Source of the DNA: a bacterium
GTDB taxonomy: Bacteria > Cyanobacteriota > Vampirovibrionia > Gastranaerophilales > Gastranaerophilaceae
Direction of reading: 5' to 3'
Assembly (NCBI GenBank): GCA_017559905.1
Contig: JAFYQF010000023.1
Location: 1-64,000 of the forward strand
Length of the DNA: 64,000 nt
The notes below the pieces were generated by a model, which worked only from the letters and a program-made list of their open reading frames with translations, ran no database searches and was not told the DNA's origin. The number at the start of each line of letters is the position of its first letter. The first letter of the stretch is position 1. Positions 23,668 through 38,200 of this stretch are shown here, one piece after another. A program made the translations under genes and the position numbers.

Positions 23668-23739
23668 TCCTCAGTAGCTCAATGGCGGAGCAACCGGCTG
23701 TTAACCGGTAGGTTGTTGGTTCGAGTCCAACCTGGGGAG
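23668..23739 (+). tRNA. tRNA-Asn (anticodon GTT)
   Basis: Cloverleaf with acceptor TCCTCAG/CTGGGGA, anticodon stem ACCGG/CCGGT, loop CTGTTAA and T-loop TTCGAGT. CCA is not encoded. Confidence 0.85.
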
Positions 23740-25295
23740 TTTTTTAATGCAAAGTTTGCATAAGTGGTTTCAACCCCAGGTAGGACAGTCGTTTTCACGT
23801 TTCGATATTTAGAGTTTTTTTTTACTAATTCGAGTTGATTTTTTACTAAATCTTGGAAAAACGGTCGTAATTTTATGTCAAAATGCTTGTCTTTGTAAAG
23901 AATTGCTTCGGCAATTATATTAATTATTTTCTTACGCTGATGCATTGTCCCACGGATAAATAAATCATGTATGTTATCCAAGAAACCAAGCATAATCCCT
24001 GTATCATCATAAAACTGTTTTTCCAAGTCGTTAATTGTCTGAAGCTGTATCAAAAATCTTTCTTTTTCATCTTGCCATTTTTTATTAAACCTTACCCAAT
24101 CCTCATGGCTTATATTCCCATCAAGTTTTAATTCAATCGAGTTCTCAATACGATTTTCTAACTGCTCGATCTGTCTTTTAAGCGTTGCTTTCACCTCTTT
24201 TGTGTAGCCAAGTTTCTTTAGATGTTCTTCCCTTAAATCATCTGCGATAGTATCTCGCATCTCTTTAGGGATTACAATCAATTTAAGCACCTCTGCAAAG
24301 GCTCTATCAACCTTTTCTTCATTAATATAGTCTTGCTTACAAGTACCACCTTTATAGCCCGTACAATGGTAATAAACGTACCTGTAATTACCTTGTCTGT
24401 CTCTTTTGTTTTCTGCTGTAATTTGACAACCGCAATGCCCACAGTGCATTAAACCTGTATAAGCAAATTCCAAGTTATGTTTCTTTGATTTATTAGGGTC
24501 TCGTAACCTATCCTGAACCCTGTAAAATAAAGCTTTACTAATGATGGCTTTATGCTTACCATTATCATAGATCTTATTCATATACTTATAAGATCCAGTG
24601 TAGAATATGTTTTTGAGCATATACTCCACAGTACTACAAGGTATTGCTTTGCCATTTTGGTTTTTAAACCCATCTTCTTGCAATTTTTTAGTTAAAGTGT
24701 TTAGCGAATAAAGCCCACTGTCGTACAATTCAAATGCGCGCCTTACATATATGGCTCTATTTTCATCAATAACAATCGCTTTTGAACCATTAGGGTTTGT
24801 AACGTTAAGGTAACCTATTGGAGCAAGACTTGGATAATCACCTTGCTCTGCTTTTTGTTTTAGTGCAGCAACTGTTCTTGCAGCAATTACTTTTCTCTCG
24901 TACTCTGCAAAATTTATCCCAATGTTTCGCATCAAATCACCCTCTAAGGTATCTACATTGGCCTCTGTTGCAATAAGAAGTTGAATATCATTTTTGACAA
25001 ACAACGGCTTTAATATCCCGTGATAATCTGTATTACTTCTTGAAATTCTATCTAAACGCCAAACAACTACGGCTTTAACGTTGTTTTGTTTTTTCTTGCA
25101 ATAAGCGATTAAATCTTGAATATCCGGTCTTTCAAGATTCTTACCGGATTTACCATCATCTACAAAAATCTTGCTAACGTGATAACCATTCTTGCTCGCA
25201 AATTCAATGCAATCTTTCTTTTGCTTGTCAATACTCACACCAAGTTTGTTTCTGTCCTCGGCAGAAACACGTGCGTACACAACGGCTTTGTTCAT
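23679..25295 (-). CDS. Large serine recombinase (resolvase-N + recombinase + zinc-ribbon domains)
   Basis: The N-terminus 'VVYARVSAEDR...' has the serine-recombinase catalytic domain. A Cys cluster 'CGHCGC...YYHCTGYKGGTC' follows. The 3' ~20 codons overlap tRNA-Asn. Confidence 0.85.
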   Translation of the reverse strand: MNKAVVYARVSAEDRNKLGVSIDKQKKDCIEFASKNGYHVSKIFVDDGKSGKNLERPDIQDLIAYCKKKQNNVKAVVVWRLDRISRSNTDYHGILKPLFVKNDIQLLIATEANVDTLEGDLMRNIGINFAEYERKVIAARTVAALKQKAEQGDYPSLAPIGYLNVTNPNGSKAIVIDENRAIYVRRAFELYDSGLYSLNTLTKKLQEDGFKNQNGKAIPCSTVEYMLKNIFYTGSYKYMNKIYDNGKHKAIISKALFYRVQDRLRDPNKSKKHNLEFAYTGLMHCGHCGCQITAENKRDRQGNYRYVYYHCTGYKGGTCKQDYINEEKVDRAFAEVLKLIVIPKEMRDTIADDLREEHLKKLGYTKEVKATLKRQIEQLENRIENSIELKLDGNISHEDWVRFNKKWQDEKERFLIQLQTINDLEKQFYDDTGIMLGFLDNIHDLFIRGTMHQRKKIINIIAEAILYKDKHFDIKLRPFFQDLVKNQLELVKKNSKYRNVKTTVLPGVETTYANFALKNSPGWTRTNNLPVNSRLLRH

Positions 25296-25318
25296 TTGTT
25301 GTCCCTTTCTCTTTCGAT

Positions 25319-25498
25319 TTATATACTGTCCTTACCATTAAAAATATCTTGAAATACGCTAACAAAATTAACCAACAATTCTGCATTATCGATATCAGTT
25401 GTTTCTGTATCGCTTTCATATATTTGAATTGTCATTCCATCTCTTGTGTGCAATTTGTCTCCAATTAAAATAAAGTTTTCAAAATTTTCTACTCCCAT
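25319..25498 (-). CDS. Small acidic hypothetical protein (59 aa) immediately upstream of the recombinase
   Basis: Strong RBS (AAAGGAGAAA plus 5 nt, then ATG). It is co-oriented with and 23 bp upstream of the recombinase. Below the ORF-track size cut-off. Confidence 0.35.
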   Translation of the reverse strand: MGVENFENFILIGDKLHTRDGMTIQIYESDTETTDIDNAELLVNFVSVFQDIFNGKDSI

Positions 25499-26051
25499 AA
25501 TTTCTCCTTTATTTTAATAAGAAAATTTAGGAGTACTTAAAAAAGTGACGTATTCTTTAAGAAATCGGCACTTTTGAAAAATTTTTACAAATATTCTGGC
25601 GTAATTAAAAGCATGCTACAAGCCTCAGACATAGATTTTTTACAGAACTTCATGGAAAACATTACGCCCTTATAATAGAAGTCGGGAAATACCATTACGA
25701 ATTGCTGCAAGATTTCTAAAACAAAATTTGACAACAACTTGCCTCTACGCCAGACTTTCGATACCGAACTAGTATTATCAAGCGAGGTATCACTTGAAAG
25801 GGAAACAAATGCAGTGTCAATTACGTGATGGGAAAGTCGAATGCAACGATAGTAAAAAACAAATAAGTAATGGCGAATACTCCAAAGCCCATAAACACTT
25901 GTACCGAAGAATTAATGCACAAATGCGTTTACTAGACTACCAAGCAAGAATGAAGTATAGTAAACGTGAATTACAATAATTAAAATCAATATGTCCAAAA
26001 ATGACGCAACTTATTATTATACTATTAGATATAGAATAATTATGAGGACAT

Positions 26052-26906
26052 ATGATTTATTTAAACACTTTTTCTTTCCCAACGCTTGAAGATGAAAACG
26101 ACTTCAGATTTTCACAGAATAGAACTTGTTATACAAGCATTTATCCATATGGGATTTTGTCAAAAAATACAATTGAAAAACTAGTTTTTGAACCAATTAC
26201 TATTTTATACGGTGGAAATGGTTGCGGCAAAAGCACGGCTTTAAATGTTATTGCTGAAAAATTAAAACTTGAAAGAGATAACCTATACAACAAAAGTAAT
26301 TTTTTTAATGATTACAAAAAACGTTGTAGATATGAAACAAATGGCATTCCCACTCATAGCAGAATAATAACTAGCGATGATGTTTTTGATTTTACGATGA
26401 ATTTGAGATATTTAAATGAAGGACTAGATAGACAAAGAGAAAATCTTTTAGACGAAGCTTACCGAAGAAAAACTTATCAATTCAAGATGAAAAGCTTAGA
26501 TGATTATGATGAATTTAAAAGAAACATGATTGCACAACAAAAATCTCAATCTGAATTTGTAAGACAATATATGCTACCAAATGTTAAAGAACAATCAAAT
26601 GGGGAAAGTGGATTCATGTATTTTACGAGTAAAATTCAAAATGATGCGCTCTACTTACTTGATGAACCTGAAAACAGTCTTTCTCCAGAAAAGCAAAAAG
26701 AATTGCTACAATTTATTTATGATAGTGCTAGATTTTACAATTGCCAATTTATTATAGCTACGCATTCTCCATTTTTGTTGTCGATAAAAGATGCAAAAAT
26801 TTACGACTTCGATGAAACACCCGTTAAAGTAAAGCCTTGGACAGAATTAAAAAATGTTAGAGAATATTATAACTTTTTCAAACTGCACGAAAAAGATTTT
26901 ATTTAA
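26052..26906 (+). CDS. Soluble ABC/AAA_21-like ATPase
   Basis: Walker A 'GGNGCGKST', signature-like 'SNGESG', Walker B 'LYLLDEPENSL' and H-loop 'IATHSP' are all present. No TM segments. Confidence 0.75.
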   Translation: MIYLNTFSFPTLEDENDFRFSQNRTCYTSIYPYGILSKNTIEKLVFEPITILYGGNGCGKSTALNVIAEKLKLERDNLYNKSNFFNDYKKRCRYETNGIPTHSRIITSDDVFDFTMNLRYLNEGLDRQRENLLDEAYRRKTYQFKMKSLDDYDEFKRNMIAQQKSQSEFVRQYMLPNVKEQSNGESGFMYFTSKIQNDALYLLDEPENSLSPEKQKELLQFIYDSARFYNCQFIIATHSPFLLSIKDAKIYDFDETPVKVKPWTELKNVREYYNFFKLHEKDFI

Positions 26907-26994
26907 TAATTAAGTAGAATAGTTGCAATTAACAACCTAAATAAAATTTCAATTTATACTATTATATATTTATTAGCAATAAGGAGTTATCGTT

Positions 26995-27861
26995 ATGACA
27001 AAAATAGAAATTCTAAATGGTGATATAACAAAGTTAAAAGTCGATGCGATAGTTAATGCTGCCAATAAAAGTTTATTAGGTGGCGGTGGTGTTGATGGAG
27101 CAATTCATCGTGCTGCTGGACATAAACTTTTAGAAGAGTGCCAAACTCTGAATGGATGTGAAACAGGACAATCTAAAATAACCAAAGGTTACAACTTACC
27201 TGCAAAATTCGTTATACACACAGTAGGACCTGTTTGGTACGGAGGGAATAAAAATGAACGAGAAATGCTTAAATCTTGTTATCATACAGCATTAACTCTT
27301 GCCAAAGAAAATGGAGTTAAAACAATTGCATTCCCTGCAATTTCTTGTGGCGTTTACCGTTTTCCATTAGAAGAAGCTTGTGCCATTGCAACTGAAACTG
27401 TAAAAGACTTCATTTCAAACGACGACAGCTTTGAGAAAATAATTTTTATAGATATTAACGAAGAAATTATTAATCTATATTTAGATTTAAGTGATATAAA
27501 TTCCAGATGTCAAAAATTACCAAAAATTAAACCACAAGATTTTAAATGGGGTGGAGGATTTAAAAACTCTAAAGAAGGTGAAACACCACAATTTCCTTAC
27601 GTAATTTATACTGAAAATGTTCTCGAATGGGTTCGATGTTATTATAAATTAGAGTTAATAATGCCAAATTACGTTGAATACGTAAACAATGCAGATTTTC
27701 GAAATAAAAAATTCAAAAATTATTCAAGAAATGATATTCTAAATTTGCTAACATACTATATTCGCCAAGATAGATTTTGCGAAGGTCTGTTGGCTGGCAA
27801 AATCAAATCCGGTGAAGTAACTGAACTCGTTGACAGATTGCACGAAATAACAAAGGGATAG
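26995..27861 (+). CDS. Macro-domain (ADP-ribose-binding/processing) protein with ~115-aa C-terminal extension of unknown function
   Basis: '[27 protein letters not shown]' is the canonical macro signature, preceded by an AAGGAG RBS. The C-terminal region is unassigned. Confidence 0.8.
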
Positions 27862-27874
27862 GTGAACTTATGTA

Positions 27875-28240
27875 GAGAATATTTCTTTTCGGAAGTATTT
27901 ATTGTATAATTGTTTATGGCAGAATCGATAAGAACGATGAGCTATAGTTTCTTTTCGGAAGTATTTATTGTATAATCTAAAATGGTGTAGTATTCCATAG
28001 AACCGTGCTATAGTTTCTTTTCGGAAGTATTTATTGTATAATTAAGGCTGAATAGTGCTGAAGTCCATTACAGCTATAGTTTCTTTTCGGAAGTATTTAT
28101 TGTATAATCGCAAGTGAATTCACCGGTGACGCAAAACGGCTATAGTTTCTTTTCGAAAGTATTTATTGTATAATTAGAATTACATTACTGTTAAGAAAGG
28201 AGGCGCTATAGTTTCTTTTCGAAAGTATTTATTGTATAAT
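27875..28240 (+). CRISPR. CRISPR array: 6 x 36-bp repeats (GCTATAGTTTCTTTTCGGAAGTATTTATTGTATAAT), 5 x 30-bp spacers
   Basis: Repeats lie at 27875 (5'-degenerate), 27941, 28007, 28073, 28139 and 28205. Spacers are exactly 30 bp. Repeats 5-6 carry a G18A variant, and each repeat ends in TGTATAAT. Confidence 0.95.
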
Positions 28241-28286
28241 ACCAATCTTCCAAACCCAAAAGGCACAAGGGGATTGGTATTTTTTA
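28241..28286 (+). terminator. Hairpin plus T-run after last repeat (possible pre-crRNA terminator)
   Basis: accaatc...gattggt stem followed by ATTTTTTATT. Confidence 0.35.
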
Positions 28287-28325
28287 TTCAAAAAAATTAA
28301 AACAAAAGAAGTTGTTCTGCTCCTA

Positions 28326-28490
28326 TTAATAATTAGAAATATGAATTTGTGGATTTTCTAAAATGATTGTTCCAATATCTTCCATTGGAATTGTAACTTC
28401 GTCATCAGAATCGAGAGCTTGGTGTACAAGCTGTCGATTCTTGATATGAAGTTTGCAAGGATTTGAAAATAGTAAAGTTTTATAACTCAT
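28326..28490 (-). pseudogene. cas1: cas1 remnant (N-terminal 54 codons only)
   Basis: The translation 'MSYKTLLFSNPCKLHIKNRQLVHQALDSDDEVTIPMEDIGTIILENPQIHISNY*' resembles type II Cas1 N-termini (SpCas1 '...SKLSYKNNHLIF...EIDILLLETTDIVLTT'). Its ATG overlaps the cas9 stop in ATGA. The remaining ~250 codons and cas2 are absent. Confidence 0.6.
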
Positions 28491-31400
28491 TTATTTTTAA
28501 CCTTTTTTGTGTTCTTAAATTTTATATCTTGTCGTTTTTCTTTTTTTACTTCATGATAATTTCCTAATACATCAATTTGGTATTTTTTGAATGAATAAAC
28601 ACTTTTTACTGCAATTCTAATTATTTCCTTTTTCTTTGCTCCATCTTGTTCTATTACTGTAATACGAGCAGAATCAATATCAGTACTTTTGTAGTAATAA
28701 TATTTTATACTTTCTTCTTTTTCATCCTTATTTATTGAAATTAAGGTGTCTTTAAACAATGAAAATTTAAATTTATAGCTTTCATCCATTTCTAACCAAC
28801 CATCTTTACCATTAGATATAGCTTTATTCGGCAAAATTCCTTTTGCAAAGTCTGAAACATAGATTGGCACAAGATAAAATTCTTCTTTACCTTTTTTATT
28901 CTTTTTAGAAAACACGTCTACCCTTGGCATTGAATCATTATTGGCAAATCCATTATGAACTAATATGCCTGAAGTACCTTTTGATTTTATTTTTATTGTT
29001 TTAATTTCGTGAGGTTTTATTCCCGCTTGTTTTTTTACTTCTGACAATGGCATATAAACAGGCTCAGCAAAAGCTTTTTCTGGTTTATTATCAAACTGCT
29101 CTAGCCTTTCTTTTAAGAGGTTGTATACTACAATGTTTCTTTCTTTTTCGTGCATATCTTCCAATTTTTTTAAATCAATTTTTTGTATTGGTGTCTTTAA
29201 TGTTGTAAATCCTTCATCAAGATGTTTAGGACTACGAATGGTAGCTTCGTGTATACCGCCTGGAATTTTGTTCCTTGGAGCTCTTGATACGAAGATTTCA
29301 CCAATAGAATTTTCTAAATCTTCACTAAATGTTCCCCAAGGTTTTTTAAAACGAGGTTTCATATGGTTTATAAAATCATAGTTTTCACGTTGAGCAGATA
29401 TTGTCGATAAGAATTTAACCATACCTTTTGTCGAACAAGCTACAATTGTCGCATCAACTGCGTGATGCCTGTCATTTTCTTCTCTATCTTTATTTATACC
29501 CCATTGGTTTCTTAAAAACGCGGTAAGTGAGCCGTTTCTTGTCTCTACTTTTATATCAAGATTCGCTTGGATATAGTCTTTAATAAACACCGTTATGTAC
29601 CTTGTATCATTCAGATTTCTTGAAGAAAAGCCGTCGCTATCATCTTTAGAATAAGATTTTCTAATCAAACGATTTATTTTTGGCGATTTCAGGTTTAATG
29701 TTTTTATCCAAGCACAGTATTCTGTCCAATCAACTTTTGAGCCAAAATATTCGTAAGGGATTTTATTACCTTTCATTCTATTTTGGTCAGCTAAGCATAA
29801 TACTTTGTTGTTTAAACTATCATCGTAACATCTTGAGTAAGGAATTATGTGGTCTATATCGGTATAATTCTCATCACTTAATCGTCTTATATCAATAGCT
29901 TTTCTTGAATATGGACAAAAGCCTCCCTGTTCTTCCCAAAGTCTAAATCGTAATAAGTTATTTTTCGAATCTGGATTTACACCATGTTTAAAGCATCTTT
30001 GGCGGGCAAACTCTTTTTCTTTTCTAAAGTCTTCTTGACCGGATTTTATCTTATTACGTTCTTCAGCTGATTTACCTAAATCTCTTGCTGTCTCTATAAT
30101 AATCTTGTCAAATTTACCATATTCTCTTATAAGTGCATTTACTACTTTTCTAGTTTGAGAAATTGCTCGGTTAACAACAGGGTTTGTTGTTAGTTCACTT
30201 TGATCCAAAACTGGTAAATATTCTTTATTTTTTGAAACAATTGCATTTTTAAAATCATACCCAGCTTCAGCACAAGCTTCGTTATATTTTAAACCTTGTA
30301 ACATATAAGGTGTAATTTTTTGCATAGCTTTAATTGATAAATGCATAACTTTGCTAGCAGATAAATCTTTTATGCAATCTATAATTTCTTGTGCAATATC
30401 TTTATCTAATAATCGCTTTGTAATTGCTTCATCAGATTTTTCATAGGTTAGTGCAGTTGCAATTTCATTAAATAAAAGTTCTTTATTATTAAGATTGTCA
30501 AAATACTCATTACCGAATACTTTTATAATAGCTTTTTTAATCTCGTGGTATTTTTTTAATTCAATTAATGTTGCATCTTCTGGATTAATTTCCACCAATT
30601 CTCCCGTTTTTTTATCTTTAGTTTTTTTACCATACTGTAGCGTCTTATAACATATACTCTCTACAAGTCCTAATTCTTTACGAGCTTGTTTATAAGTAAG
30701 TTTTGCTTTTTGATGTGCAATATTAATTAAATCTTGAATTTGCTTTGGTGCCAAATCGACGGAAGTCCCGTCTTCTAAAATCAATTTAGTATTAACAAGT
30801 TTTTGTGTCGCAACAAAAATTTCTGCAGTATATGATGCTTTTGGAGCTCTTTTTTCGTCTTTTTCAAATTGGCAATTCCCAACCATGTTTTCCATTGACT
30901 GCAAAGGTCTTTGATAAAATGAGATTTTCATATATTCTTCTTCAAAATCTTTATTCGCAAATTCAGAGCCGAAACTTCTTTGTTTTTCAAATATGGTTTT
31001 TATTTCTTGTTCTAATAAATCTCTTGGTATTGAATTTTTATAATCGTCTCTTTTGTTTCTTTTGGCACTATGTTCATATATAGTTGCAAACATTTCACCA
31101 ACAGTTTGAAAATTGCCACCTTCAAACTGTTGCTTATTTTCACTTATACATTTTAATAAATTACCCTCAGTCTTTGCTTCTTCACTCTTTCTAATTGATT
31201 TAAACCCTCTGCGTTTTGCAATTTGATGAAGTACTCTATAAAATTCTTCTATTGTTAATTCCCTTGATAAAGCCTCTTTTCTTAAAATCCAAGTATCAAT
31301 TCTTTTTGTATTGTTATGAAAAAGATTTGAAATATCATTCTCTGATAAATATTTATTAGCAATAAATAACTGTTTTATTGCTCTTAACCTATAAGCTCGT

Positions 31401-31594
31401 CTTGATAAACGGCGTCTAGCACCCCGAAAAATCCTACGTTCAGCATTTAAAGGAGCTTTAGTTTTAGCTACTTCGCAAGCTTCAAAAGTTCTAACACCAG
31501 TTTTTAAAATTTCACCATTAAAATTTTCGTCATCATAATTTATTACAGAAAAACCTATTGATGCAATACCAATATCAAGACCTAAAATTTTCAT
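28487..31594 (-). CDS. cas9: Cas9 (type II-C-sized, 1035 aa), nuclease-competent
   Basis: Present are RuvC-I 'ILGLDIGIASIGFSV', an Arg-rich bridge helix, RuvC-II 'IIIETARD', HNH 'DIDHIIPYS...NNKVLC...NRMKGNK' and RuvC-III 'HHAVDATIV'. Confidence 0.95.
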   Translation of the reverse strand: MKILGLDIGIASIGFSVINYDDENFNGEILKTGVRTFEACEVAKTKAPLNAERRIFRGARRRLSRRAYRLRAIKQLFIANKYLSENDISNLFHNNTKRIDTWILRKEALSRELTIEEFYRVLHQIAKRRGFKSIRKSEEAKTEGNLLKCISENKQQFEGGNFQTVGEMFATIYEHSAKRNKRDDYKNSIPRDLLEQEIKTIFEKQRSFGSEFANKDFEEEYMKISFYQRPLQSMENMVGNCQFEKDEKRAPKASYTAEIFVATQKLVNTKLILEDGTSVDLAPKQIQDLINIAHQKAKLTYKQARKELGLVESICYKTLQYGKKTKDKKTGELVEINPEDATLIELKKYHEIKKAIIKVFGNEYFDNLNNKELLFNEIATALTYEKSDEAITKRLLDKDIAQEIIDCIKDLSASKVMHLSIKAMQKITPYMLQGLKYNEACAEAGYDFKNAIVSKNKEYLPVLDQSELTTNPVVNRAISQTRKVVNALIREYGKFDKIIIETARDLGKSAEERNKIKSGQEDFRKEKEFARQRCFKHGVNPDSKNNLLRFRLWEEQGGFCPYSRKAIDIRRLSDENYTDIDHIIPYSRCYDDSLNNKVLCLADQNRMKGNKIPYEYFGSKVDWTEYCAWIKTLNLKSPKINRLIRKSYSKDDSDGFSSRNLNDTRYITVFIKDYIQANLDIKVETRNGSLTAFLRNQWGINKDREENDRHHAVDATIVACSTKGMVKFLSTISAQRENYDFINHMKPRFKKPWGTFSEDLENSIGEIFVSRAPRNKIPGGIHEATIRSPKHLDEGFTTLKTPIQKIDLKKLEDMHEKERNIVVYNLLKERLEQFDNKPEKAFAEPVYMPLSEVKKQAGIKPHEIKTIKIKSKGTSGILVHNGFANNDSMPRVDVFSKKNKKGKEEFYLVPIYVSDFAKGILPNKAISNGKDGWLEMDESYKFKFSLFKDTLISINKDEKEESIKYYYYKSTDIDSARITVIEQDGAKKKEIIRIAVKSVYSFKKYQIDVLGNYHEVKKEKRQDIKFKNTKKVKNK

Positions 31595-31648: not shown

Positions 31649-31651
31649 ACG

Positions 31652-31745
31652 ATTGTACAATAAATACTTTCGAAACGTTACTATAGTAAGAAGTTTTCGA
31701 AAAGTTTCTAGCAGATACATTTTAATATGTATCTGCTATCTTTTA
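31652..31745 (+). ncRNA. tracrRNA
   Basis: The anti-repeat at 31652-31690 can pair with 33 of 36 repeat positions (including G-U pairs) with a 3-nt internal mismatch. A palindromic TTTTCGAAAA hairpin follows. The terminator is agcagataca-ttttaata-tgtatctgct followed by ATCTTTT. Confidence 0.75.
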
Positions 31746-31747
31746 GT

Positions 31748-32143
31748 TTATTTTTCATTATTTTCTTTTGCAAAATTTGCAGTATCTTGAATTAATTTTA
31801 TAGCCTTATTACTATCGTGCATTTCTTGCCCATACAAAACAATGTTATCTTCAAAATAATTCCCGTGCAGTTCAATTACATTTTTTGAACCTGCTTTTGT
31901 ATGTAAATTATCGACATTCATTGTAATAATTGGAATATCTAATTCTGCAAGGATTTTGTGTGCCTTTGTTGGTTCTCGGTCTTTAACGTTATTTATAAGC
32001 AAATCAATTGCGTCTTTAAACTCTTTTGGATATTGTTCTTTAAATTCAACGGACAATTTTTCTTTAATTCCAGGTATTTCCTCAAATGTTGGAATACCAG
32101 CTGATTTTGAAATTCCTGCACCTGTAAAAGCTATTATTTTCAT
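31748..32143 (-). CDS. Mini Sir2-like protein (131 aa)
   Basis: 'GAGISKSAGIPTF', 'ITMNVDNLHTKAG' and 'IELHGN' match the sirtuin NAD-binding and catalytic-His core. The Zn-ribbon module and C-terminal half are missing. An AGGAGG RBS is present. Confidence 0.65.
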   Translation of the reverse strand: MKIIAFTGAGISKSAGIPTFEEIPGIKEKLSVEFKEQYPKEFKDAIDLLINNVKDREPTKAHKILAELDIPIITMNVDNLHTKAGSKNVIELHGNYFEDNIVLYGQEMHDSNKAIKLIQDTANFAKENNEK

Positions 32144-32237
32144 AAACTACCTCCTAGATAAGTTAACTATAAACCACTTTTCGTAAGTTGGCATCCATGA
32201 AATTGTCTAGATAAAATTATGTATTTTTTTGAATTTG

Positions 32238-32400: not shown

Positions 32401-32432
32401 GGTAGTACTTAATTAAAAAAGGAGAAAAACTT

Positions 32433-32750: not shown

Positions 32751-32805
32751 TTTTCAGTTGATAAATAAAAGCCTAGACAATAAATCTAGGCTTTTATTAT
32801 CGTTT

Positions 32806-32952
32806 AAACAAATCCCAAAAACTTTTTATCTCGCGTTTCTGTTTTTTAGGTTGCTTTTTGCGTTGATGCTGAACATGTTTGTCGTCATCTTCAAACAAAC
32901 CAAACTGAATATCTGCTTCAATTAAATCTTCCAAGTCATCAAAATCAAACAT
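32806..32952 (-). CDS. Small acidic hypothetical protein (~49 aa)
   Basis: 'MFDFDDLEDLIEADIQFGLFEDDD...'. Its start overlaps the stop of the upstream small ORF (TAATG). Confidence 0.3.
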
Positions 32953-33167
32953 TATTCTTCCTCATCAGAGTATTCGTAGTTTGCCCATTTTTCACGTTGT
33001 AAGGCTTTCTTGTCATATTTAGTTTCTTCGGGTTCATCCCAAACTAACTCGTACATATTAGCCATTTCTTGCTCTTTGGCTTTACGATTTCTATCGTCAT
33101 CACTTCCAAACAATAAATCAAATAATCCCATTAGAGGTCCTTTCGTTATACTTAGATTATAAACCAA
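32952..33167 (-). CDS. Small acidic hypothetical protein (71 aa, or ~59 aa from the internal Met)
   Basis: '...MGLFDLLFGSDDDRNRKAKEQEMANMYELVWDEPEE...SDEEE'. Very D/E-rich. Confidence 0.4.
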   Translation of the reverse strand: MVYNLSITKGPLMGLFDLLFGSDDDRNRKAKEQEMANMYELVWDEPEETKYDKKALQREKWANYEYSDEEE

Positions 33168-33217
33168 ATATATGTCAAAAATGGACGCAGAGTTTTCTAA
33201 ATTAAAAATAACACCAA

Positions 33218-33832
33218 TTAGAATTTACTTGCTTTCGCACGTGCTTGCAATTCTGCTATTAATTCTTCGGTTGAAAATTCACTTAAACCAGGACTTGTAT
33301 TTTCAAACATATTGCATATAACTTCCGAATACACATCCGGACGCATATTGGCATACTGTTCTAAGATAGTTTCAACTTCCCAATGCCCAATATTTTGGCT
33401 TAGTGCTTTCAATTCTTTACCTGTATGAGCTTTTTCTAAGCCTTTACTTACCATGTAATGTCTAAACGAATGAGGATTATAATCCTTTATGCCAGCTTGC
33501 CTACACATCTTTTTGATGATCTCATTATATTTCGTATTGCTATAATTTTTGTTAACCAATTGAACACCAGATGCATAATTCTTTATCTGTGGGAATAAAA
33601 GGATTTTATTTCCCGAAATATTAGATTTAACATATTCGACCCATTCTTTCAGATACTGCAAATACATTTTATCCAAAACCATAAATCTTGTATAAATTAG
33701 TTTGTCTAATTTTGTGTGAGTATCTTCTAAAGGATCCTGTTTTACCATCAACTTTTGAAAGTCAATCAAATTTATTGTAATAGTCGCAACAGCATCAATT
33801 CTTGCAGCTGTTAACAACATATACGAAATCAA
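33218..33832 (-). pseudogene. Tyrosine recombinase/integrase, N-terminally truncated (catalytic domain only)
   Basis: Box I 'LLTAARIDAV', 'HSFRHYMVS' and 'GHWEVETILEQYANM' cover the R..HxxR..Y catalytic residues. The N-terminal core-binding domain is absent and the fragment abuts a Fic fragment on the opposite strand. Confidence 0.7.
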
Positions 33833-33839
33833 AGCACGA

Positions 33840-34454
33840 TTGCGTGAATCCTCAACTGTATTTGATGGTGAAAAAGTTGAGCATCTTGCACCACCTGCAA
33901 AAAGAGTTCCAGAACTTATGTTTGATTTGTTTGAATGGCTTAAAACAAGTGATGTACATCCATTAATAAAAAGTTGTGTTTTTCATTATGAATTTGAATT
34001 TATTCATCCTTTTCAAGATGGAAATGGCAGAATGGGACGTTTATGGCAAACAGCTATTTAAAAAGAGTGGAAAGAAGTTTTTGCCTGGCTTCCGGTCGAA
34101 ACATTAATCAAAGAAAATCAAAAAGAATATTACAAAGTTCTTGCAGTGAGTGATAGTGTTGCAAATAGTACAAAATTCATTGAATTTATGTTGTCTATCA
34201 TCCTAAACACAATCAATGAAATTATTGAAACTGAGAAAAAGGTTACTGCAAAGGTTACTCTAAAGGTTAGTGTAAATCAACAAAAAATTATCGACGCAAT
34301 CAAGAGTAACCCTAAAGTTACTCAAGAAGGACTTGCTGAAATTGTTGGAATCACAAGAAAAAGCGTCATCTCTAACATGAAAAAACTTCAAGAAAACGGA
34401 TTGATAAATCGTATCGGCGCAGATAAAAATGGGTATTGGAAAGTTGTAGAATAA
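33840..34454 (+). pseudogene. Fic/DOC family protein, 5'-truncated with single in-frame TAA (34059-34061)
   Basis: The Fic motif 'HPFQDGNGRMGR' is present. The same frame continues after the TAA ('KEWKEVFAWLPVETLIKENQKEYY...') into a C-terminal winged-HTH ('ITRKSVISNMKKLQENGLINR'). Confidence 0.7.
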
Positions 34455-34685
34455 CGTTGTAATGACGTAAATTCCTCAACCTATAGAGTATATTTTTTGT
34501 TTTGTATACTTTATATAATTCCTTATGCAAAATTATTCCTTCTTTACAGTATCCATCATTCATACATTCATCTATGTCCATATAACGTTCAAAATTTTTA
34601 CAAAATTCGAACAAAAATATATTGAACAAATTATGTCCGTATTTGACAGATATATAGGTTATTATTTTTCTAAAAGGAGAAATTT

Positions 34686-34940
34686 ATGTGTATGCGAGCA
34701 CCTCAATCTTATATTGAAGATTTACAAGATAAAACATTCAAAGATCTTTTAGAAATTCGTGATAAATTGTTAAATGAAATCATAGATTTTGAAAAAAATA
34801 TTGAAGAAATAATGTCCCCAAAAGTTTCTTTTGATCCTGCACCTGAAGTAGTTTATCAATGGAAATTATGGGTACTTAGCTTGCTTTTTGACTTATTACA
34901 AAATAAATTCAACGAAGAATACATCAATTTTGATAATTAA
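34686..34940 (+). CDS. Hypothetical protein (84 aa)
   Basis: ORF with an AAAGGAGAAA RBS. Confidence 0.4.
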   Translation: MCMRAPQSYIEDLQDKTFKDLLEIRDKLLNEIIDFEKNIEEIMSPKVSFDPAPEVVYQWKLWVLSLLFDLLQNKFNEEYINFDN

Positions 34941-35103
34941 CTTATTAAAGGCCAAATTTTGGCTGACTCAAGGTGCTTTTTATTATTAAAACAAAAGAAA
35001 TGCTTGTCAATAATTTTTCTTTGATTTAAATACCTTGTGATTTAATACAACGAGGTAAAACTATAAATAGGCAATTCAAATTGTGCAGACGGGTTATCCA
35101 AAC

Positions 35104-35781
35104 CTATCTCATAGTAAAAATATGGTCAAGATAAGCAATAAATTTTATATAAGTGGCAGGAAACCAATTGTATCCTCGAGATTTTATTTTTTGACCATTA
35201 GATAAAGTTGCTTTAAATTCATACCACTCACCATCACGAACATTGGGATTTACCCCAAAATCTTCATGGAAATACTTTATCATCCCCAAAGCATATTCAT
35301 CAAAATTTTCGTCTGTTATACTAATCTTTAATGGGGGTTTTAAACTAATAACCTCATCTTCTATTGAAATAGCTATTGACTCCATTCTTTCAAACTCTCT
35401 ATTATTATATTCTAATATTTTGCCGTGTTTTTTTGTAGATTTGTATTTATAGACATAAGGAACATACGGATATCCGCCACGAATAAACTCAAAAGATTTA
35501 ATTGTCAAATTTGGTTCAAGTTCAATCGGTTCATTTTCTAAAATACGTTCGTCTTCTCCTAATTCGCGCAATACCTCAAAACATTCATCATCATTAGTTA
35601 AACGAATTTCTCCAGTACTATCATTATACAAAATACTATGAGGCTTACCAATATAACGAGGTTCGCTATCCCAAAATATCGGATCATAGACTATATAATT
35701 ATTCCAACCCCCGGCGTAAAGAGCATAATCATAGCCACATAAATTTGCATATTTTATAATTTTTTCATCTGATTCATTCAT
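35104..35781 (-). CDS. Hypothetical protein (225 aa)
   Basis: ORF with good periodicity and no assignable motif. Confidence 0.5.
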   Translation of the reverse strand: MNESDEKIIKYANLCGYDYALYAGGWNNYIVYDPIFWDSEPRYIGKPHSILYNDSTGEIRLTNDDECFEVLRELGEDERILENEPIELEPNLTIKSFEFIRGGYPYVPYVYKYKSTKKHGKILEYNNREFERMESIAISIEDEVISLKPPLKISITDENFDEYALGMIKYFHEDFGVNPNVRDGEWYEFKATLSNGQKIKSRGYNWFPATYIKFIAYLDHIFTMR

Positions 35782-35874
35782 ATTAAAACCTCATTGTACA
35801 TTTTACATTATTAATATAAGCCACCCCTATGACAAATACGGACGCAACAAACAATACCTCAACCTATAAACATA

Positions 35875-36032
35875 AAAAATCATCTACTCGCTTAATCATC
35901 CATAGTATTTCTTGCATACTTGGTTCAAAAAATCTTTTGTATAAAGTTTCAATGAATGCTTCCCAACTCTCGCAGGATGGGGAGTTTTTTAATGTCAAAT
36001 TTAAAGCGAGGTTTGTCCTCGCTTTTTGTTAC
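35875..36032 (+). repeat. Direct repeat copy A (~160 bp, ~92% identical to copy B); contains att-like core and a terminator hairpin
   Basis: Aligns base-for-base with 38044-38200. It includes gcgagg...cctcgc followed by TTTTT. Confidence 0.8.
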
Positions 36033-36042
36033 TTATCAGTGA

Positions 36043-36837
36043 TTAAATTTTAGGTTTACTTCTGTAATATCCTTTGACTTCGGTTCCATCTGTACGTGTA
36101 TATGAATTTACATATACAACTCCACCACCTGTTTTCGCTTCGAGCTCTAAATCTTTGTTTGTTGGCATTGTTCCCTTAAAAACTCGAATTTGAGCATCTA
36201 TTTCTTTTTCATGTTTTGCAAATTCTTCTTTGCTCATAGAACCAACTTCCTCACGTGTATATATATGATTGCTCCCTGTTAATGGGTTCGCGTAACCATA
36301 TAAACTAGTTTGATCTTCTTGGCAATCATTTTTTATACCTGTAACGTTTGAAACATCATAACCCTCAAATTTTTTCATGTAATTTTCAACACTTGTACCA
36401 AAGGCATCTCTAGGAATATTTTTCCCATCACTTTGCAGATATTCTTTGACTGCTCCAGGTCCTTTGAGATGTGCAGCCGCAAGTAAACCTGATTGAGTTA
36501 CCTTTACCCCATTAATTTCTTTACCAATGTACTTATCGGCTCCAATGGCTTTTAGTTGTTCCCATTGAACCTGCTTGAATGCTTTTTGCGCATTTTCTTG
36601 TGCCTGTTTGTTTTTTAAAAAATCTTCAATGCTATATACACCATCTTTGCCTGTAAATTGACCTGTCCAATCATTATTATATCTGCCTGATGCCTTTTTA
36701 TAGTAGCCTGCATCTATCATTGCGGCTTCACCCATTTGATATTTACCGATGTAGCCGTATTTATTTATAGAGGAATAATTACCTCCAGATTCTCTTGCTC
36801 CTAAATCATTATAAAATTCATCTAAGGTTTTTGTCAT
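36043..36837 (-). CDS. Lytic transglycosylase (SLT)-like domain protein
   Basis: 'ARESGGNYSSINKYGYIGKYQMG' resembles the SLT catalytic-Glu motif (E-S...GLMQ). Confidence 0.5.
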   Translation of the reverse strand: MTKTLDEFYNDLGARESGGNYSSINKYGYIGKYQMGEAAMIDAGYYKKASGRYNNDWTGQFTGKDGVYSIEDFLKNKQAQENAQKAFKQVQWEQLKAIGADKYIGKEINGVKVTQSGLLAAAHLKGPGAVKEYLQSDGKNIPRDAFGTSVENYMKKFEGYDVSNVTGIKNDCQEDQTSLYGYANPLTGSNHIYTREEVGSMSKEEFAKHEKEIDAQIRVFKGTMPTNKDLELEAKTGGGVVYVNSYTRTDGTEVKGYYRSKPKI

Positions 36838-36912
36838 AAAATTGTCCTTTCATACTAAATCTAAAGTGTTATATGAATAACACTTTTCTGTTTTAACTTA
36901 TTACGAAAAATA

Positions 36913-37485
36913 TTATATATTTACTTTCATTTTTAAATAATTATATTTATAACTATTATTTTGAAAAAGCAAATATATGGTGCTTTCAACAAATTCACCT
37001 TTTAAACGATTATGGTTATTATAACATTTTGCTTTGATTTCTTTATAATTATTTATAATAATATTATTTATATATATTTTTTCATTTGGTAGAAAATGTA
37101 TGTCTGACAAATCTATATATTCAATATTATTTTGTTGTTCTAATATAAATAATTTAAAACCTTCTGTGCAAGAATAGTATGTTGAAAAAACAACACCTAT
37201 AACTTCTTTTTTACCATCTCCGTTTAAATCAGTTTCAAAAGCACTTATTGTTCTTGGGGTGATGTTTGCAAAATTTTGTGCTTCTTTTGGAGTTTTACCT
37301 AATTCTTTTAATACGAATTTATATAATATTCTACTTGCCTTTGCTTGTGACTGTTTGGAGAGATTATATTCGATAGTTCCGTCAGAATGAGAAATTGGCT
37401 TGTTATTTATTTTTGAGCAACTAAAGACAGGACAAGTAATAAACAAAAAAATTATAAATAAAATCCATATTTTTTTCATACACAT
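36913..37485 (-). CDS. Putative lipoprotein/secreted protein
   Basis: Signal peptide followed by a Cys ('LFITCPVFSCS'). Confidence 0.5.
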   Translation of the reverse strand: MCMKKIWILFIIFLFITCPVFSCSKINNKPISHSDGTIEYNLSKQSQAKASRILYKFVLKELGKTPKEAQNFANITPRTISAFETDLNGDGKKEVIGVVFSTYYSCTEGFKLFILEQQNNIEYIDLSDIHFLPNEKIYINNIIINNYKEIKAKCYNNHNRLKGEFVESTIYLLFQNNSYKYNYLKMKVNI

Positions 37486-37659
37486 ATTTTACTAAAAAAA
37501 CTCAACTTTTCAAATTATTAACATAATTTTTAACTCCTTTCTTTATGCTTATTGCCTATTGTCTATTATCAACAACTGTTGATAAATATCATATATCATT
37601 ATTTTGTGTATTTGTCAACAATAGTTGATTTTTTATTTTGTTTTGATTAGCATAAGAGT

Positions 37660-38046
37660 ATGAACAAGCAAGAACAACTTATAAAATTTGGAATAGCGTT
37701 AAAAAATAGACGTCAAGCGCTTAACTTGAGTCTTAGAGATGTTGAGAAAATATCTAATATTAGTGCTGCATTAATCACCAAACTTGAAAACGGTAAGATG
37801 GCAAATTTTCCTAAAGCATTAACTATTAAACAACTTAGCGATGCTTTAAAATTTGATAACGAATTATTTCTTCTTGCAGATATTTTAAATGAATCCCCAC
37901 AAGTTGCAAAATCCGAAAAAACTTTTGAAGAAGAATTTAGAGAATTTTTAGCAACAAAAACCACCCTAAATGCTGAAAATATTGAACAAACCTTATATTT
38001 TGTATCAGGATTAGAAAAATTACAACAAATAAAGAATATTAATTAA
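37660..38046 (+). CDS. XRE-family helix-turn-helix transcriptional regulator
   Basis: 'LKNRRQALNLSLRDVEKISNISAALITKLENGK' is a classic HTH_XRE. Confidence 0.7.
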   Translation: MNKQEQLIKFGIALKNRRQALNLSLRDVEKISNISAALITKLENGKMANFPKALTIKQLSDALKFDNELFLLADILNESPQVAKSEKTFEEEFREFLATKTTLNAENIEQTLYFVSGLEKLQQIKNIN

Positions 38047-38200
38047 AAATCATCTATACGCTTAATCATCCAAAGTATGTCTTGCATACTTGGTTCAAAA
38101 AATCTTTTGTACAAGGTTTCAATGAATGCTTCCCAACTCTCGCAGGAGATGGAGTTTTTTATTGTCAAAATTAAAGCGAGGTTTGTCCTCGCTTTTGTTT
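38044..38200 (+). repeat. Direct repeat copy B
   Basis: See copy A. The core here reads GATGGAGTTTTTTATTG (degenerate). Confidence 0.8.

What the first reader, a model, noticed from the sequence alone, without database searches (positions are those of the whole stretch)
23668..38200. tRNA-Asn-anchored composite island: 17-nt tRNA-3' core repeated 12.2 kb away, plus a second ~160-bp repeat copy 2.2 kb further on
TGGGGAGTTTTTTAATG occurs at 23733-23749 (the tRNA-Asn 3' end plus 10 downstream nt) and identically at 35978-35994. The second site lies inside a ~160-bp segment (35875-36032). That segment recurs at ~92% identity at 38044-38200, with a degenerate core.

Everything between carries mobile-element hallmarks. 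These are a large serine recombinase, an integrase fragment, a Fic pseudogene, an XRE regulator and an SLT lysozyme. The defence-type cargo is CRISPR-Cas9, Sir2, Macro and an ATPase.

The pattern fits two successive integrations at the same tRNA, followed by decay.
Basis: seen in the sequence. Interest (0 to 1): 0.6.

Follow-up and report, generated by a model that had tools for sequence, protein, structure and literature searches.

The report
Serine-integrase island at tRNA-Asn
A real 14.4-kb mobile island sits next to a tRNA-Asn gene in a gut Melainabacteria genome; it was inserted by a large serine integrase, an enzyme type that rarely targets tRNA genes, and the integrase gene itself spans the attachment site, so insertion changes the enzyme's own tail.

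Summary
The 17-mer occurs exactly twice (23733-49 and 35978-94). The 155-nt block 35872-36026 recurs at 92% at 38042-38196.

The island reading is supported. A related genome (L019) keeps BaxI, tRNA-Asn, core and hairpin as an empty site, followed soon by the POT and acyltransferase genes. The window carries 14.4 kb between those points.

The integrase is the intact large serine recombinase (LSR, 23679-25295), not the tyrosine-integrase fragment. Its reading frame crosses attL and ends antisense inside the tRNA, as in 38 of its 120 best homologs.

The 155-nt repeat is an attR. It holds the displaced 3' end of the LSR gene, then the core, then the native tRNA terminator.

Nearly identical LSRs elsewhere occur in both states. 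One sits on a 38-kb free phage contig with a ~37-aa tail. The other ends inside tRNA-His.

The attL-LSR module (23661-26025) is 97.8% identical in a second species, where the cargo differs. That shows recent transfer.

E1 (23750-35994) carries an ATPase, a Macro protein and a Cas9 array without cas1/cas2. E2 (36027-38164) is an older remnant.

How an attB was restored between the two events is unresolved.

The parts
23668..23739 (+). tRNA-Asn(GTT), the chromosomal target. Its last 7 nt belong to the core.
   Evidence: ARAGORN and Rfam. An identical tRNA sits next to BaxI in the LSR-free relatives L001, L002 and L019.
23733..23749 (+). attL core O, TGGGGAGTTTTTTAATG. The B arm (tRNA) lies to the left and the P' arm (LSR coding end) to the right.
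   Evidence: Exact repeat. The same 17-mer lies at attL of the 97.8%-identical element in a second species, L027. Homology to L003/L004 ends at 23751.
23679..25295 (-). Large serine recombinase, 538 aa. Its last ~20 codons are antisense tRNA-Asn (tail ..KNSPGWTRTNNLPVNSRLLRH).
   Evidence: Pfam Resolvase, Recombinase and Zn_ribbon_recom. Translation. The catalytic-region invariant residues are kept. The same tail occurs in 38 of 120 homologs.
25319..25498 (-). 59-aa ORF just upstream of the LSR. It is a candidate accessory or directionality factor (inferred).
   Evidence: A gene is called here in L005, L007 and L027. The motif ELLV.(F/Y)V(S/D)..(D/E)I is shared with the small ORFs upstream of the LSR in L008 and L022.
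26052..26906 (+). AAA_21/ABC-type ATPase cargo gene. It is an indel relative to the sister element.
   Evidence: Pfam AAA_21 and AAA_15. Partial matches to PADLOC PtuA and AriA. Window 26026-26959 is absent from L027.
26995..27861 (+). Macro-DUF6508 protein. Its Macro part is shared with the sister element.
   Evidence: Pfam Macro at 1.5e-47 and DUF6508. Window 26960-27480 is 95.4% identical to L027.
27875..28240 (+). CRISPR array: 6 repeats of 36 nt and 5 spacers of 30 nt. Each repeat ends in TTGTATAAT.
   Evidence: Three spacers have no exact match in IMG/VR.
28487..31594 (-). Cas9, 1035 aa. No cas1 or cas2 lies in the island.
   Evidence: Pfam HNH_4, RuvC_III and Cas9_RuvC. PADLOC Cas9 at 9e-198. 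No gene called in L005 carries a Cas1 or Cas2 domain.
31650..31686 (+). Anti-repeat of a putative tracrRNA.
   Evidence: 86-89% complementary to the CRISPR repeats (pairs I1-I5).
31748..32143 (-). Sir2 N-terminal fragment, 131 aa.
   Evidence: Pfam SIR2, profile positions 1-115 of 180.
33218..33832 (-). Tyrosine-recombinase catalytic domain only, 204 aa. It is internal and lies at neither island end.
   Evidence: Pfam Phage_integrase positions 27-168 of 172. PHROG integrase positions 83-236 of 301.
33840..34454 (+). Fic pseudogene in two pieces, 33840-34061 and 34146-34454.
   Evidence: PADLOC SoFic at 5e-23 (profile 144-207) and 1e-07 (profile 250-345). The HPFxxGNGR motif is visible in the translation.
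35864..35977 (-). P arm of attR-A. It is the displaced 3' end of the LSR gene and encodes ..SCESWEAFIETLYKRFFEPSMQEILWMIKRVDDFLCL* in frame with the core.
   Evidence: Frame and translation. Collinear with the tail of the free-form homolog P0050. Differences between copies A and B are 4 synonymous and 2 conservative.
35978..35994 (+). attR-A core, identical to the attL core. It is the right end of element E1.
35995..36026 (+). B' arm of attR-A. It is a copy of the native tRNA-Asn downstream terminator hairpin.
   Evidence: Window 35978-36026 is 91.8% identical to the sequence directly after tRNA-Asn in L019. Terminator-like hairpin.
36043..38046 (.). E2 remnant: lysozyme-like gene 36043-36837 (-), putative lipoprotein 36913-37485 (-) and XRE regulator 37660-38046 (+).
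   Evidence: PHROG 27932 at 5e-22. Pfam HTH families. No homologs in L019.
38043..38164 (.). attR-B: P arm on the minus strand (same peptide with E>D and V>I) plus an altered core, GATGGAGTTTTTTATTG.
38165..38209 (+). B' arm of attR-B, where host sequence resumes. It is the tRNA terminator hairpin plus 13 nt.
   Evidence: Window 38151-38209 is 94.9% identical to L019 immediately after its tRNA-Asn. Terminator-like.
39021..41483 (+). Host right flank: POT transporter and acyltransferase-like gene.
   Evidence: 82% and 67% aa identity to L019, in the same order, about 2.4 kb from its tRNA-Asn.

Best explanation
The region 23750-38164 is a composite genomic island in a Gastranaerophilales (Melainabacteria) chromosome. 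It was inserted at the 3' end of tRNA-Asn by large serine recombinases (LSRs).

E1 (23750-35994, 12.2 kb) is an integrative element. Its LSR gene sits at the very left edge and is read towards the tRNA. The attachment site of this LSR family lies inside the 3' end of the LSR gene itself.

In the free form the reading frame runs through the core into a ~37-residue tail. Recombination within or at the edge of the 17-bp core shared with the tRNA end splits the gene. The body of the gene then reads on into antisense tRNA (attL). The displaced tail-coding piece ends up 12.2 kb away, joined to the tRNA's own terminator (attR-A, the '160-bp repeat').

E2 (36027-38164) is the decayed remnant of an earlier, related element. 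Only three genes and its attR (copy B) survive. Host sequence resumes at the core of copy B.

E1 now carries defence-type cargo: an ATPase, a Macro protein and a Cas9 array with tracrRNA but no cas1/cas2. It also carries several pseudogenes.

Shown: the junction anatomy, the empty site in a relative, the free and integrated gene forms in the family, and recent transfer of the attL-LSR module between species.

Inferred: that E1 can still excise, that the small upstream ORF helps with this, and that the tail swap has a regulatory role.
For: 1. Empty site. L019 has BaxI, tRNA-Asn, ACCTGGGGAG TTTTTTATTG and the hairpin. This is 94.9% identical to window 38151-38209 and 91.8% identical to 35978-36026. 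POT and acyltransferase then follow in the window's order.

2. Position of the LSR. The frame of a complete LSR with all three domains crosses attL and stops inside the tRNA. The same tail, KNSPGWTRTNNLPVNSRLLRH, ends 38 of the 120 best homologs. In L008-L012 the tRNA-Asn is confirmed at the DNA level next to such an LSR.

3. Free versus integrated forms. P0074 ends ..NGA|RNGLLLEP...LVA and lies on a 37.9-kb phage contig with terminase and lysozyme genes. P0075 is 97.2% identical and ends ..NGA|PDGIRTHAYRNHNPRS inside tRNA-His, next to rpsO. Their DNA is near-identical up to ..GAAAATGGGGC and then diverges. P0094 is a second free form, on 40-kb phage contigs.

4. The window's own tail. The minus strand of repeat A continues the LSR frame through the core (LKNSP|SCESWEAF...). 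It aligns without gaps to the tail of P0050, the closest free-form relative, whose gene contains TGGGGAGTTTTTAAT. Between copies A and B there are 6 differences in 34 codons, 4 synonymous and 2 conservative.

5. Mobility. Window 23661-26025 is 97.8% identical to L027. That species has a BaxI only ~35% identical, a different tRNA-Asn sequence and different cargo.

6. Composition. The island is 30.7% GC against 33-34% in the flanks, and its tetranucleotide deviation is raised over 26-40 kb.
Against: - No excised circle and no empty site was found for this species itself. All same-species contigs show the occupied arrangement, and the predicted attP junction is absent from IMG/VR.
- E1 has no replication, transfer or virion genes, and it contains pseudogenes. 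It may be immobile or dependent on a helper.
- The window's LSR has Q15R and A16N next to the catalytic serine, at positions where the 14 other aligned sequences agree.
- A 17-bp shared core is long for serine integrases, which are quoted at 5-8 bp (PMC8092301).
- Both attR copies carry the native hairpin. A simple tandem serine-integrase model does not predict this.
- The right end of the related elements in L008 and L027 was not reached, so the attR anatomy is seen only in this window.
Confidence: 0.78

Rival explanations
1. One 14.4-kb serine-integrase element runs from the tRNA to copy B. Copy A would be an internal duplicate: an old attR with a piece of host terminator, captured by imprecise excision or ectopic recombination. 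It would not be the end of a separate element.
For: In the sister family member L008, an XRE gene lies distal to the LSR and in the opposite orientation, as it does at copy B here. Copy B, not copy A, is contiguous with host sequence beyond the hairpin. This reading also removes the need for a restored attB.
Against: Copy A carries the perfect 17-mer, whereas copy B's core is altered. The two P arms differ by 8%, mostly at synonymous sites, as expected of two diverged elements rather than a recent internal copy. No mechanism places an attR copy inside an element.
Confidence: 0.12
2. This is a classical tyrosine-integrase tRNA island. The 17-bp direct repeats were made by the tyrosine recombinase whose fragment survives at 33218-33832, and the serine recombinase is only cargo.
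For: Direct repeats of a tRNA 3' end are the signature of tyrosine-integrase islands (PMC4383910). A Phage_integrase domain is present.
Against: The fragment lies 9.5 kb from attL and 2.1 kb from attR-A, and it lacks its N-terminal part. It has no homolog in the related loci fetched up to that point, L001-L012. The LSR family is found abutting tRNA genes, with its frame crossing the junction, in dozens of genomes. Matched free and integrated gene forms diverge exactly at the tRNA end.
Confidence: 0.05
3. There is no mobile element. The region is a variable chromosomal stretch, the 155-nt repeat is a duplicated terminator or small RNA, and the 17-mer match is a chance result of 'GGGGAG plus a run of T' at two terminator-like sites.
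For: Both sites look terminator-like. With 3 mismatches allowed, chance expectation for the 17-mer is not negligible (0.58).
Against: An exact second copy is expected about 8e-6 times. The sequence after both repeat cores is homologous to the sequence after tRNA-Asn in L019. The attL-LSR module is 97.8% identical in a distantly related host. Rfam finds no family in the repeat.
Confidence: 0.03

Closest known systems
Dehalococcoides ssrA genomic islands with the DsiB serine recombinase (McMurdie et al. 2011, PMC3146451)
   Same: A ~540-residue serine recombinase gene lies on the reverse strand directly next to attL at a tRNA-like gene. There is a ~20-bp direct repeat of that gene's 3' end at the far boundary. 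Islands occur in tandem, some lack an integration module, and cargo varies.
   Different: The target there is the tmRNA gene, with insertion in the T-loop. Here it is the extreme 3' end of tRNA-Asn. Those islands also carry a second small serine recombinase (DsiA) and a six-gene integration module, neither of which is seen here. No reading frame crossing the junction is described there. Homology to DsiB was not tested.
Phage serine integrases such as Bxb1, phiC31, A118 and SPbeta SprA
   Same: The Resolvase, Recombinase and zinc-ribbon architecture is shared. The gene sits at the prophage edge. Sites are simple, and a separate directionality factor is expected.
   Different: Those enzymes typically integrate into protein-coding genes with short common cores (5-8 bp; PMC8092301). 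Serine integrases were stated not to be known to target tRNA genes (PMC4383910). A later survey found them at tRNA or tmRNA genes in only 14 of 297 elements, with experimental proof still called for (PMC7192596). Here the target is a tRNA end, the core is 17 bp and attP lies inside the integrase reading frame.
Integration-dependent immunity of mycobacteriophages such as BPs and Brujita (PMC3694055)
   Same: attP lies inside a reading frame, so free and integrated genomes make proteins with different C-termini. In that system the lost tail is a degradation tag. In this LSR family, 20 of 21 free-form tails end in Ala, mostly L/F-A/V-A.
   Different: There the split gene is the repressor and the enzyme is a tyrosine integrase. 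Here the split gene is the serine integrase itself. No degradation has been shown. The window's own tail ends in FLCL, not Ala.
Classical tRNA-gene islands (Islander type) and SSV-type integrases
   Same: An intact tRNA sits at one end, a displaced copy of its 3' end at the other, and the integrase gene next to the tRNA. SSV-type tyrosine integrase genes are also split by integration (my own knowledge; not checked here).
   Different: Only 7 nt of the tRNA are repeated, the enzyme is a serine recombinase, and the split removes only the last ~37 codons.
Type II-C CRISPR-Cas
   Same: A small Cas9 (1035 aa), 36-nt repeats with 30-nt spacers, an anti-repeat upstream of cas9, and repeats ending in an extended -10-like TGTATAAT. 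The last feature resembles Neisseria (my own knowledge).
   Different: No cas1 or cas2 lies in the island. The subtype was not tested phylogenetically.

Membership tests
tRNA-gene genomic island | An intact tRNA at one boundary and a direct repeat of its 3' end at the other | tested here: met
   An exact 17-mer lies at 23733-49 and 35978-94, and an altered copy at 38148-64. Only 7 nt of the repeat lie inside the tRNA.
tRNA-gene genomic island | Synteny break at the tRNA, with an empty site in a related genome | tested here: met
   L019 has tRNA, core and hairpin, then POT and acyltransferase. L001 and L002 keep the left flank only.
tRNA-gene genomic island | A tyrosine integrase next to the tRNA (Islander definition) | tested here: not met
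   The gene next to the tRNA is a serine recombinase. The only Phage_integrase hit is an internal 204-aa fragment.
Large serine recombinase (serine integrase) | N-terminal Resolvase catalytic domain with the conserved R-V-S serine, plus Recombinase and zinc-ribbon domains | tested here: met
   Pfam hits at 4.6e-32, 2.9e-14 and 2.7e-11. Y7, R9, V10 and S11 are invariant in the alignment. Q15R and A16N are unusual.
Large serine recombinase (serine integrase) | Catalyses attP x attB recombination at a 2-bp crossover | not testable with these tools
   Only junction sequences are available. The crossover can be placed no more precisely than within or at the edge of the 17-bp core.
Large serine recombinase (serine integrase) | Element found in both free (attP) and integrated (attL/attR) states | tested here: met
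   Met at family level: P0074 (L025) versus P0075 (L026), P0094 phage contigs, and P0050. Not met for this exact element.
Dehalococcoides ssrA-GI type | A second small serine recombinase (DsiA) and a conserved six-gene integration module | tested here: not met
   Only a 59-aa ORF is conserved beside the LSR.
Type II CRISPR-Cas | Cas9 with HNH and RuvC domains, a repeat array and a tracrRNA anti-repeat | tested here: met
Type II CRISPR-Cas | Adaptation genes cas1 and cas2 | tested here: not met
   Neither was found between 23.7 and 38.2 kb by Pfam on the ORFs or by the precomputed domains of the called genes. The rest of the genome was not examined.
Integration-dependent switch (attP inside a reading frame) | Integration changes the C-terminus of the encoded protein | tested here: met
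   The tRNA-antisense tail replaces the ~37-aa tail.
Integration-dependent switch (attP inside a reading frame) | The lost tail is a proteolysis tag | tested here: inconclusive
   20 of 21 free-form tails end in Ala. The window's tail ends in FLCL or DDF. No stability data exist.

The most novel reading that the evidence does not exclude
There may be a broad clade of serine integrases that target the 3' ends of tRNA genes. Asn and His were confirmed here. Ala, Pro and Asp are suggested by antisense tRNAs just past the LSR match in more distant IMG/VR proviruses. These integrases keep attP inside their own coding sequence.

Integration then acts as a built-in state switch. It replaces a selected, degron-like C-terminal tail with a tRNA-antisense-encoded tail, which would change integrase stability or directionality between the free and integrated states.

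In Gastranaerophilales this module serves as a shuttle that exchanges defence cargo between species, including a Cas9 array that lacks adaptation genes.
Probability: 0.35. Interest if true: 0.75.

Novelty: new variant of a known kind. Interest (0 to 1): 0.6.

Why it matters
tRNA-anchored islands are commonplace, but they are almost always the work of tyrosine integrases.

This case gives sequence-level evidence for a coherent serine-integrase family that targets tRNA 3' ends. The evidence covers an empty site, both junctions, matched free and integrated gene forms, and near-identical modules in two hosts. One survey called for experimental proof of such cases (PMC7192596).

The attachment site inside the integrase gene means the enzyme differs before and after integration. 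That is a simple, testable way for an element to sense its own state. It also matters for anyone mining serine integrases as genome-engineering tools, because genes annotated from prophages would carry the wrong C-terminus.

The case also documents mobile defence cargo, including a Cas9 array, in the poorly studied gut Melainabacteria.

Tried and rejected
- Same-species empty site: not found. Exact look-ups of the LSR, PFOR, the 160-aa flank protein and a 99% BaxI variant returned only the occupied arrangement, or contigs that stop short of the tRNA. The first BaxI look-up found nothing on record.
- Metagenome scan for the tRNA end plus 10 nt: it found only another species, which shares the tRNA and 12 nt downstream.
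- Genome-collection scan: it gave two relatives. One contig ends at the tRNA. The other carries Mu/Tn7-like transposase genes there.
- Right end of the related element in L008: no second core copy within 10 kb, and no homolog of the tail peptide.
- IMG/VR searches: the repeat, the LSR as a single query, the predicted attP junction and three spacers all gave no hits.
- Rfam: no family in the repeat or in the GC-rich units of L019.
- Repeat as a plus-strand small gene: the ORFs at 35829-36053 and 38077-38286 were rejected. The substitution pattern fits the minus-strand frame that continues the LSR.
- Relaxed constraint on the window's LSR: 4 unique deviations, within the range of its relatives.
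- Literature: no description of a serine-integrase gene that spans its own attP was found in five searches. These searches were not exhaustive.

Full report
**1. The observation**

tRNA-Asn(GTT) lies at 23668-23739 on the + strand. The 17-mer TGGGGAGTTTTTTAATG occurs exactly at 23733-23749 and 35978-35994, and nowhere else even with three mismatches allowed. It covers the last 7 nt of the tRNA plus 10 nt downstream. From base composition, a second exact copy is expected about 8e-6 times.

The second site lies in a 155-nt block, 35872-36026. That block recurs at 92% identity, without gaps, at 38042-38196. There is no third copy in the window. Copy B's core is altered to GATGGAGTTTTTTATTG.

The one exception is the lysozyme-like protein. 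It matches a phage tail-lysozyme PHROG rather than any Pfam SLT family.

**2. Organism and flanks**

The BaxI gene next to the tRNA finds relatives only in Gastranaerophilales/Melainabacteria assemblies. The left flank runs PFOR, a radical-SAM gene, BaxI and tRNA-Asn. It is syntenic in L001 and L002, and the synteny stops at the tRNA.

In L002 the tRNA is followed by Mu/Tn7-like transposase genes. In another species (L003/L004) it is followed by a toxin-antitoxin pair and an HNH gene. The downstream side of this tRNA is therefore a general hot spot for insertions.

**3. The empty site**

A closer relative was reached through a BaxI homolog of 80% identity (L019-L021). Read in the window's orientation, it runs BaxI, tRNA-Asn, then ACCTGGGGAG TTTTTTATTG tcaaaattaaagcgaggcttgccctcgcttttgttttgaccaaaa.

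- This stretch is 94.9% identical to window 38151-38209, which is copy B's core, hairpin and 13 nt beyond.
- It is 91.8% identical to window 35978-36026, which is copy A's core and hairpin.

About 2.4 kb further on, L019 has the POT transporter (82% aa identity) and the acyltransferase-like gene (67%) of window 39.0-41.5 kb. So the hairpin that follows both repeat cores is the native terminator of tRNA-Asn. Host sequence resumes at copy B, and the window carries about 14.4 kb that L019 lacks.

Island GC is 30.7% against 33-34% in the flanks. Tetranucleotide deviation is moderately raised over 26-40 kb.

**4. Which enzyme**

The gene abutting the tRNA is a complete large serine recombinase (LSR) with Resolvase, Recombinase and zinc-ribbon domains. 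Its reading frame (23679-25295, minus strand) crosses the core. It ends 60 nt inside the tRNA, reading it antisense..ALKNSPGWTRTNNLPVNSRLLRH*.

A database search returned 721 homologs. Of the best 120, 38 end in the same tRNA-Asn-antisense tail. Many others end in tails that look like other tRNAs read antisense. In L008-L012, a species related to 'Clostridium sp. CAG:967', the tRNA-Asn is indeed found directly after such an LSR, next to BaxI.

The only tyrosine-recombinase signal in the island is an internal 204-aa catalytic-domain fragment, far from both ends.

**5. What the 155-nt repeat is**

On the minus strand, repeat A continues the LSR reading frame through the core: TTA AAA AAC TCC CCA encodes L K N S P. 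It then encodes SCESWEAFIETLYKRFFEPSMQEILWMIKRVDDFLCL*.

Repeat B encodes the same peptide. Across the 34 shared codons there are six nucleotide differences. Four are synonymous third-position changes and two are conservative (E>D, V>I). If one change in four were synonymous by chance, four or more of six has a probability of about 0.04 (my calculation).

Among the homologs there is a second class of C-termini. These are tails of ~35-40 residues that diverge from the tRNA-type tails at exactly the same point. Twenty of 21 end in Ala, mostly L/F-A/V-A.

The member closest to the window's LSR is P0050. Its tail, IKNSP|HRTTLESFTQELYHKIIDFNSSKIVAMIENLKMLA, aligns without gaps to the window's peptide. 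Its gene contains TGGGGAGTTTTTAAT and is followed by another gene, not by a tRNA.

**6. Free and integrated forms**

- P0094 has a tail ending ..LLDFAA. It lies in the middle of ~40-kb contigs with terminase, tail and endolysin genes, which indicates a free phage genome.
- P0074 has a tail ending ..LLQLVA. It lies on a 37.9-kb contig with terminase, lysozyme and reverse-transcriptase genes.
- P0075 is 97.2% identical to P0074. It ends ..NGAPDGIRTHAYRNHNPRS inside tRNA-His, next to rpsO and other host genes.
- The two DNAs are near-identical up to ..GAAAATGGGGC and diverge there.

In this family, therefore, attP lies inside the 3' end of the integrase gene, and integration swaps the protein's tail.

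Each repeat in the window is an attR. It consists of the displaced tail-coding arm (P), then the core, then the native tRNA terminator (B'). The tRNA-proximal copy is attL, made of the tRNA (B), the core and the LSR body (P').

**7. Mobility and cargo**

A variant of the LSR from its 90%-identity cluster (P0241) lies in a different species (L027-L030). There BaxI is only ~35% identical, the tRNA-Asn sequence differs, and the neighbouring genes differ.

- Window 23661-26025 (attL, the LSR and the 59-aa ORF) is 97.8% identical at the DNA level to L027.
- Window 26960-27480 (the Macro domain) is 95.4% identical.
- The ATPase gene (26026-26959) is absent from L027.
- Beyond 27480 the cargo is unrelated. 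L027 carries an HTH-M78 peptidase, a sigma-like protein, an MmeI/Eco57I-type methyltransferase and a PLD-SNF2 helicase.

This shows recent horizontal movement of the integration module together with cargo exchange. In L008 the same kind of module carries a Prim-Pol and a large unknown protein. In L022 it carries a Toprim protein.

The small ORF upstream of the LSR shares a motif across these elements. It is a candidate directionality factor, but this is an inference.

In the window, E1 carries the following:

- an ATPase with partial PtuA/AriA similarity;
- a Macro-DUF6508 protein;
- a Cas9 array with an anti-repeat but no cas1 or cas2;
- a Sir2 fragment;
- a SAM riboswitch with a 105-aa ORF;
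- a tyrosine-recombinase fragment;
- a split Fic gene;
- unknown ORFs.

Whether the Cas9 locus travels with the LSR is not shown.

**8. What remains unresolved**

Both attR copies carry the native hairpin. After a first serine-integrase event the attB is destroyed, so a second event next to the tRNA needs a restored tRNA-core-hairpin site.

Copy B has the L019-type alleles (ATTG, TCAAAATT) and continues into host sequence. attL and copy A share AATG.

Two histories fit, and both are inferred.

- (a) E2 integrated first. Its LSR-proximal part was then replaced by incoming DNA carrying an empty site. The exchange was anchored by homology in the left flank and ended illegitimately at 36026/36027. 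E1 then integrated.
- (b) E1, with its attR and a short piece of donor flank, was imported in one such replacement event.

A third possibility is a single 14.4-kb element with a captured internal attR. It is kept as a rival at 0.12.

L019 itself has two further core copies separated by GC-rich spacers. One is followed by a 62-nt remnant that is 90% identical to the LSR 3' end. This points to earlier events there too.

No excised circle or empty site was found for this species. E1 lacks replication and transfer genes. The LSR has Q15R and A16N beside the catalytic serine. Present-day mobility is therefore uncertain.

**9. Comparison with what is known**

- Tyrosine integrases dominate at tRNA genes. 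Serine integrases were said not to be known to target them (PMC4383910).
- A later survey found 14 of 297 serine-integrase elements at tRNA or tmRNA genes and called for experimental proof (PMC7192596).
- Serine-integrase common cores are quoted at 5-8 bp and lie in protein-coding genes (PMC8092301).
- The closest described system is the Dehalococcoides ssrA island family. It has a 540-aa serine recombinase beside attL, a 20-bp repeat and tandem islands (PMC3146451). It targets the tmRNA gene, has a second recombinase, and is not described as splitting its own gene.
- The closest conceptual parallel for a split reading frame is integration-dependent immunity in mycobacteriophages. There attP lies in the repressor gene and integration removes a degradation tag (PMC3694055).
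- I found no description of a serine-integrase gene spanning its own attP. The search was limited.
- Distant LSR relatives at the ends of IMG/VR proviruses are followed by antisense tRNA-His, -Ala, -Pro or -Asp. tRNA targeting may therefore be wider in this branch.

**10. Verdict**

This is a new variant of a known kind: a tRNA-anchored island built by a tRNA-targeting serine-integrase family whose attachment site lies inside the integrase gene. The regulatory meaning of the tail swap is the most interesting open point, and it is unproven.

Noticed in passing
window 32259-32750: A SAM riboswitch (Rfam RF00162, 54.6 bits against a gathering score of 44.4) lies inside the island. It is followed by a 105-aa ORF with no significant family hit. 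This is an odd place for a metabolite-sensing leader.
   Followed up: no
window 27875-31686: The Cas9 locus has 6 repeats, 5 spacers and an anti-repeat but no cas1 or cas2. Every repeat ends in TTGTATAAT, an extended -10-like box, so crRNAs may start inside the repeats. Three spacers have no exact match in IMG/VR, and no spacer matches elsewhere in the window.
   Followed up: partly
window 23747-23761: A perfect palindrome, ATGCAAA-G-TTTGCAT, straddles the right edge of the attL core. L019 has ATTGCAATAAATTGCAAT after its second core copy, and L022 has AATTAATT at the same place. This may mark the centre of the LSR site.
   Followed up: no
L019 8600-9090: The 'empty-site' relative has two further core copies beyond the hairpin, separated by GC-rich stretches of 150-190 nt with no Rfam match. 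The first follows what looks like a degenerate tRNA-Asn 3' half. The second is followed by a 62-nt remnant of the LSR 3' end.
   Followed up: partly
L002 7000-9700: In another Melainabacteria genome the same tRNA-Asn is followed by Mu/Tn7-like transposase pieces (HTH_Tnp_Mu_2, Mu-transpos_C) and an AAA_22 ATPase fragment. A different kind of element uses the same hot spot.
   Followed up: no
L027 1-9300: The 97.8%-identical LSR module in a second species carries a PLD-SNF2 helicase, an MmeI/Eco57I-type methyltransferase, a 738-aa sigma-like protein, DUF5986 and an HTH-M78 peptidase. This looks like a different defence cargo.
   Followed up: no
window 26026-26959: The AAA_21 ATPase gene is a clean indel between the otherwise near-identical modules of the window and L027.
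   Followed up: partly
L031, L034, L038, L042, L047, L049 (IMG/VR): Distant LSR relatives (25-31% identity) at provirus ends are followed within ~10-270 nt of the end of the LSR match (10-20 nt in four of the six loci) by antisense tRNA-His, -Ala, -Pro or -Asp. Whether their reading frames cross into the tRNA was not checked.
   Followed up: partly
L008 3212-3775 and window 33218-33832: Short (187-204 aa) Phage_integrase-domain genes occur distal to the LSR in two unrelated islands. In L008 the gene sits beside type I restriction genes. They may be small stand-alone recombinases rather than fragments.
   Followed up: no
window 1, 23664, ~37074, ~38152: Public assemblies of the same strain break at these points. 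One ENA contig spans exactly window 1-37074. Logan contigs end 4 nt before the tRNA and inside repeat B. This is consistent with repeat-induced assembly breaks.
   Followed up: no
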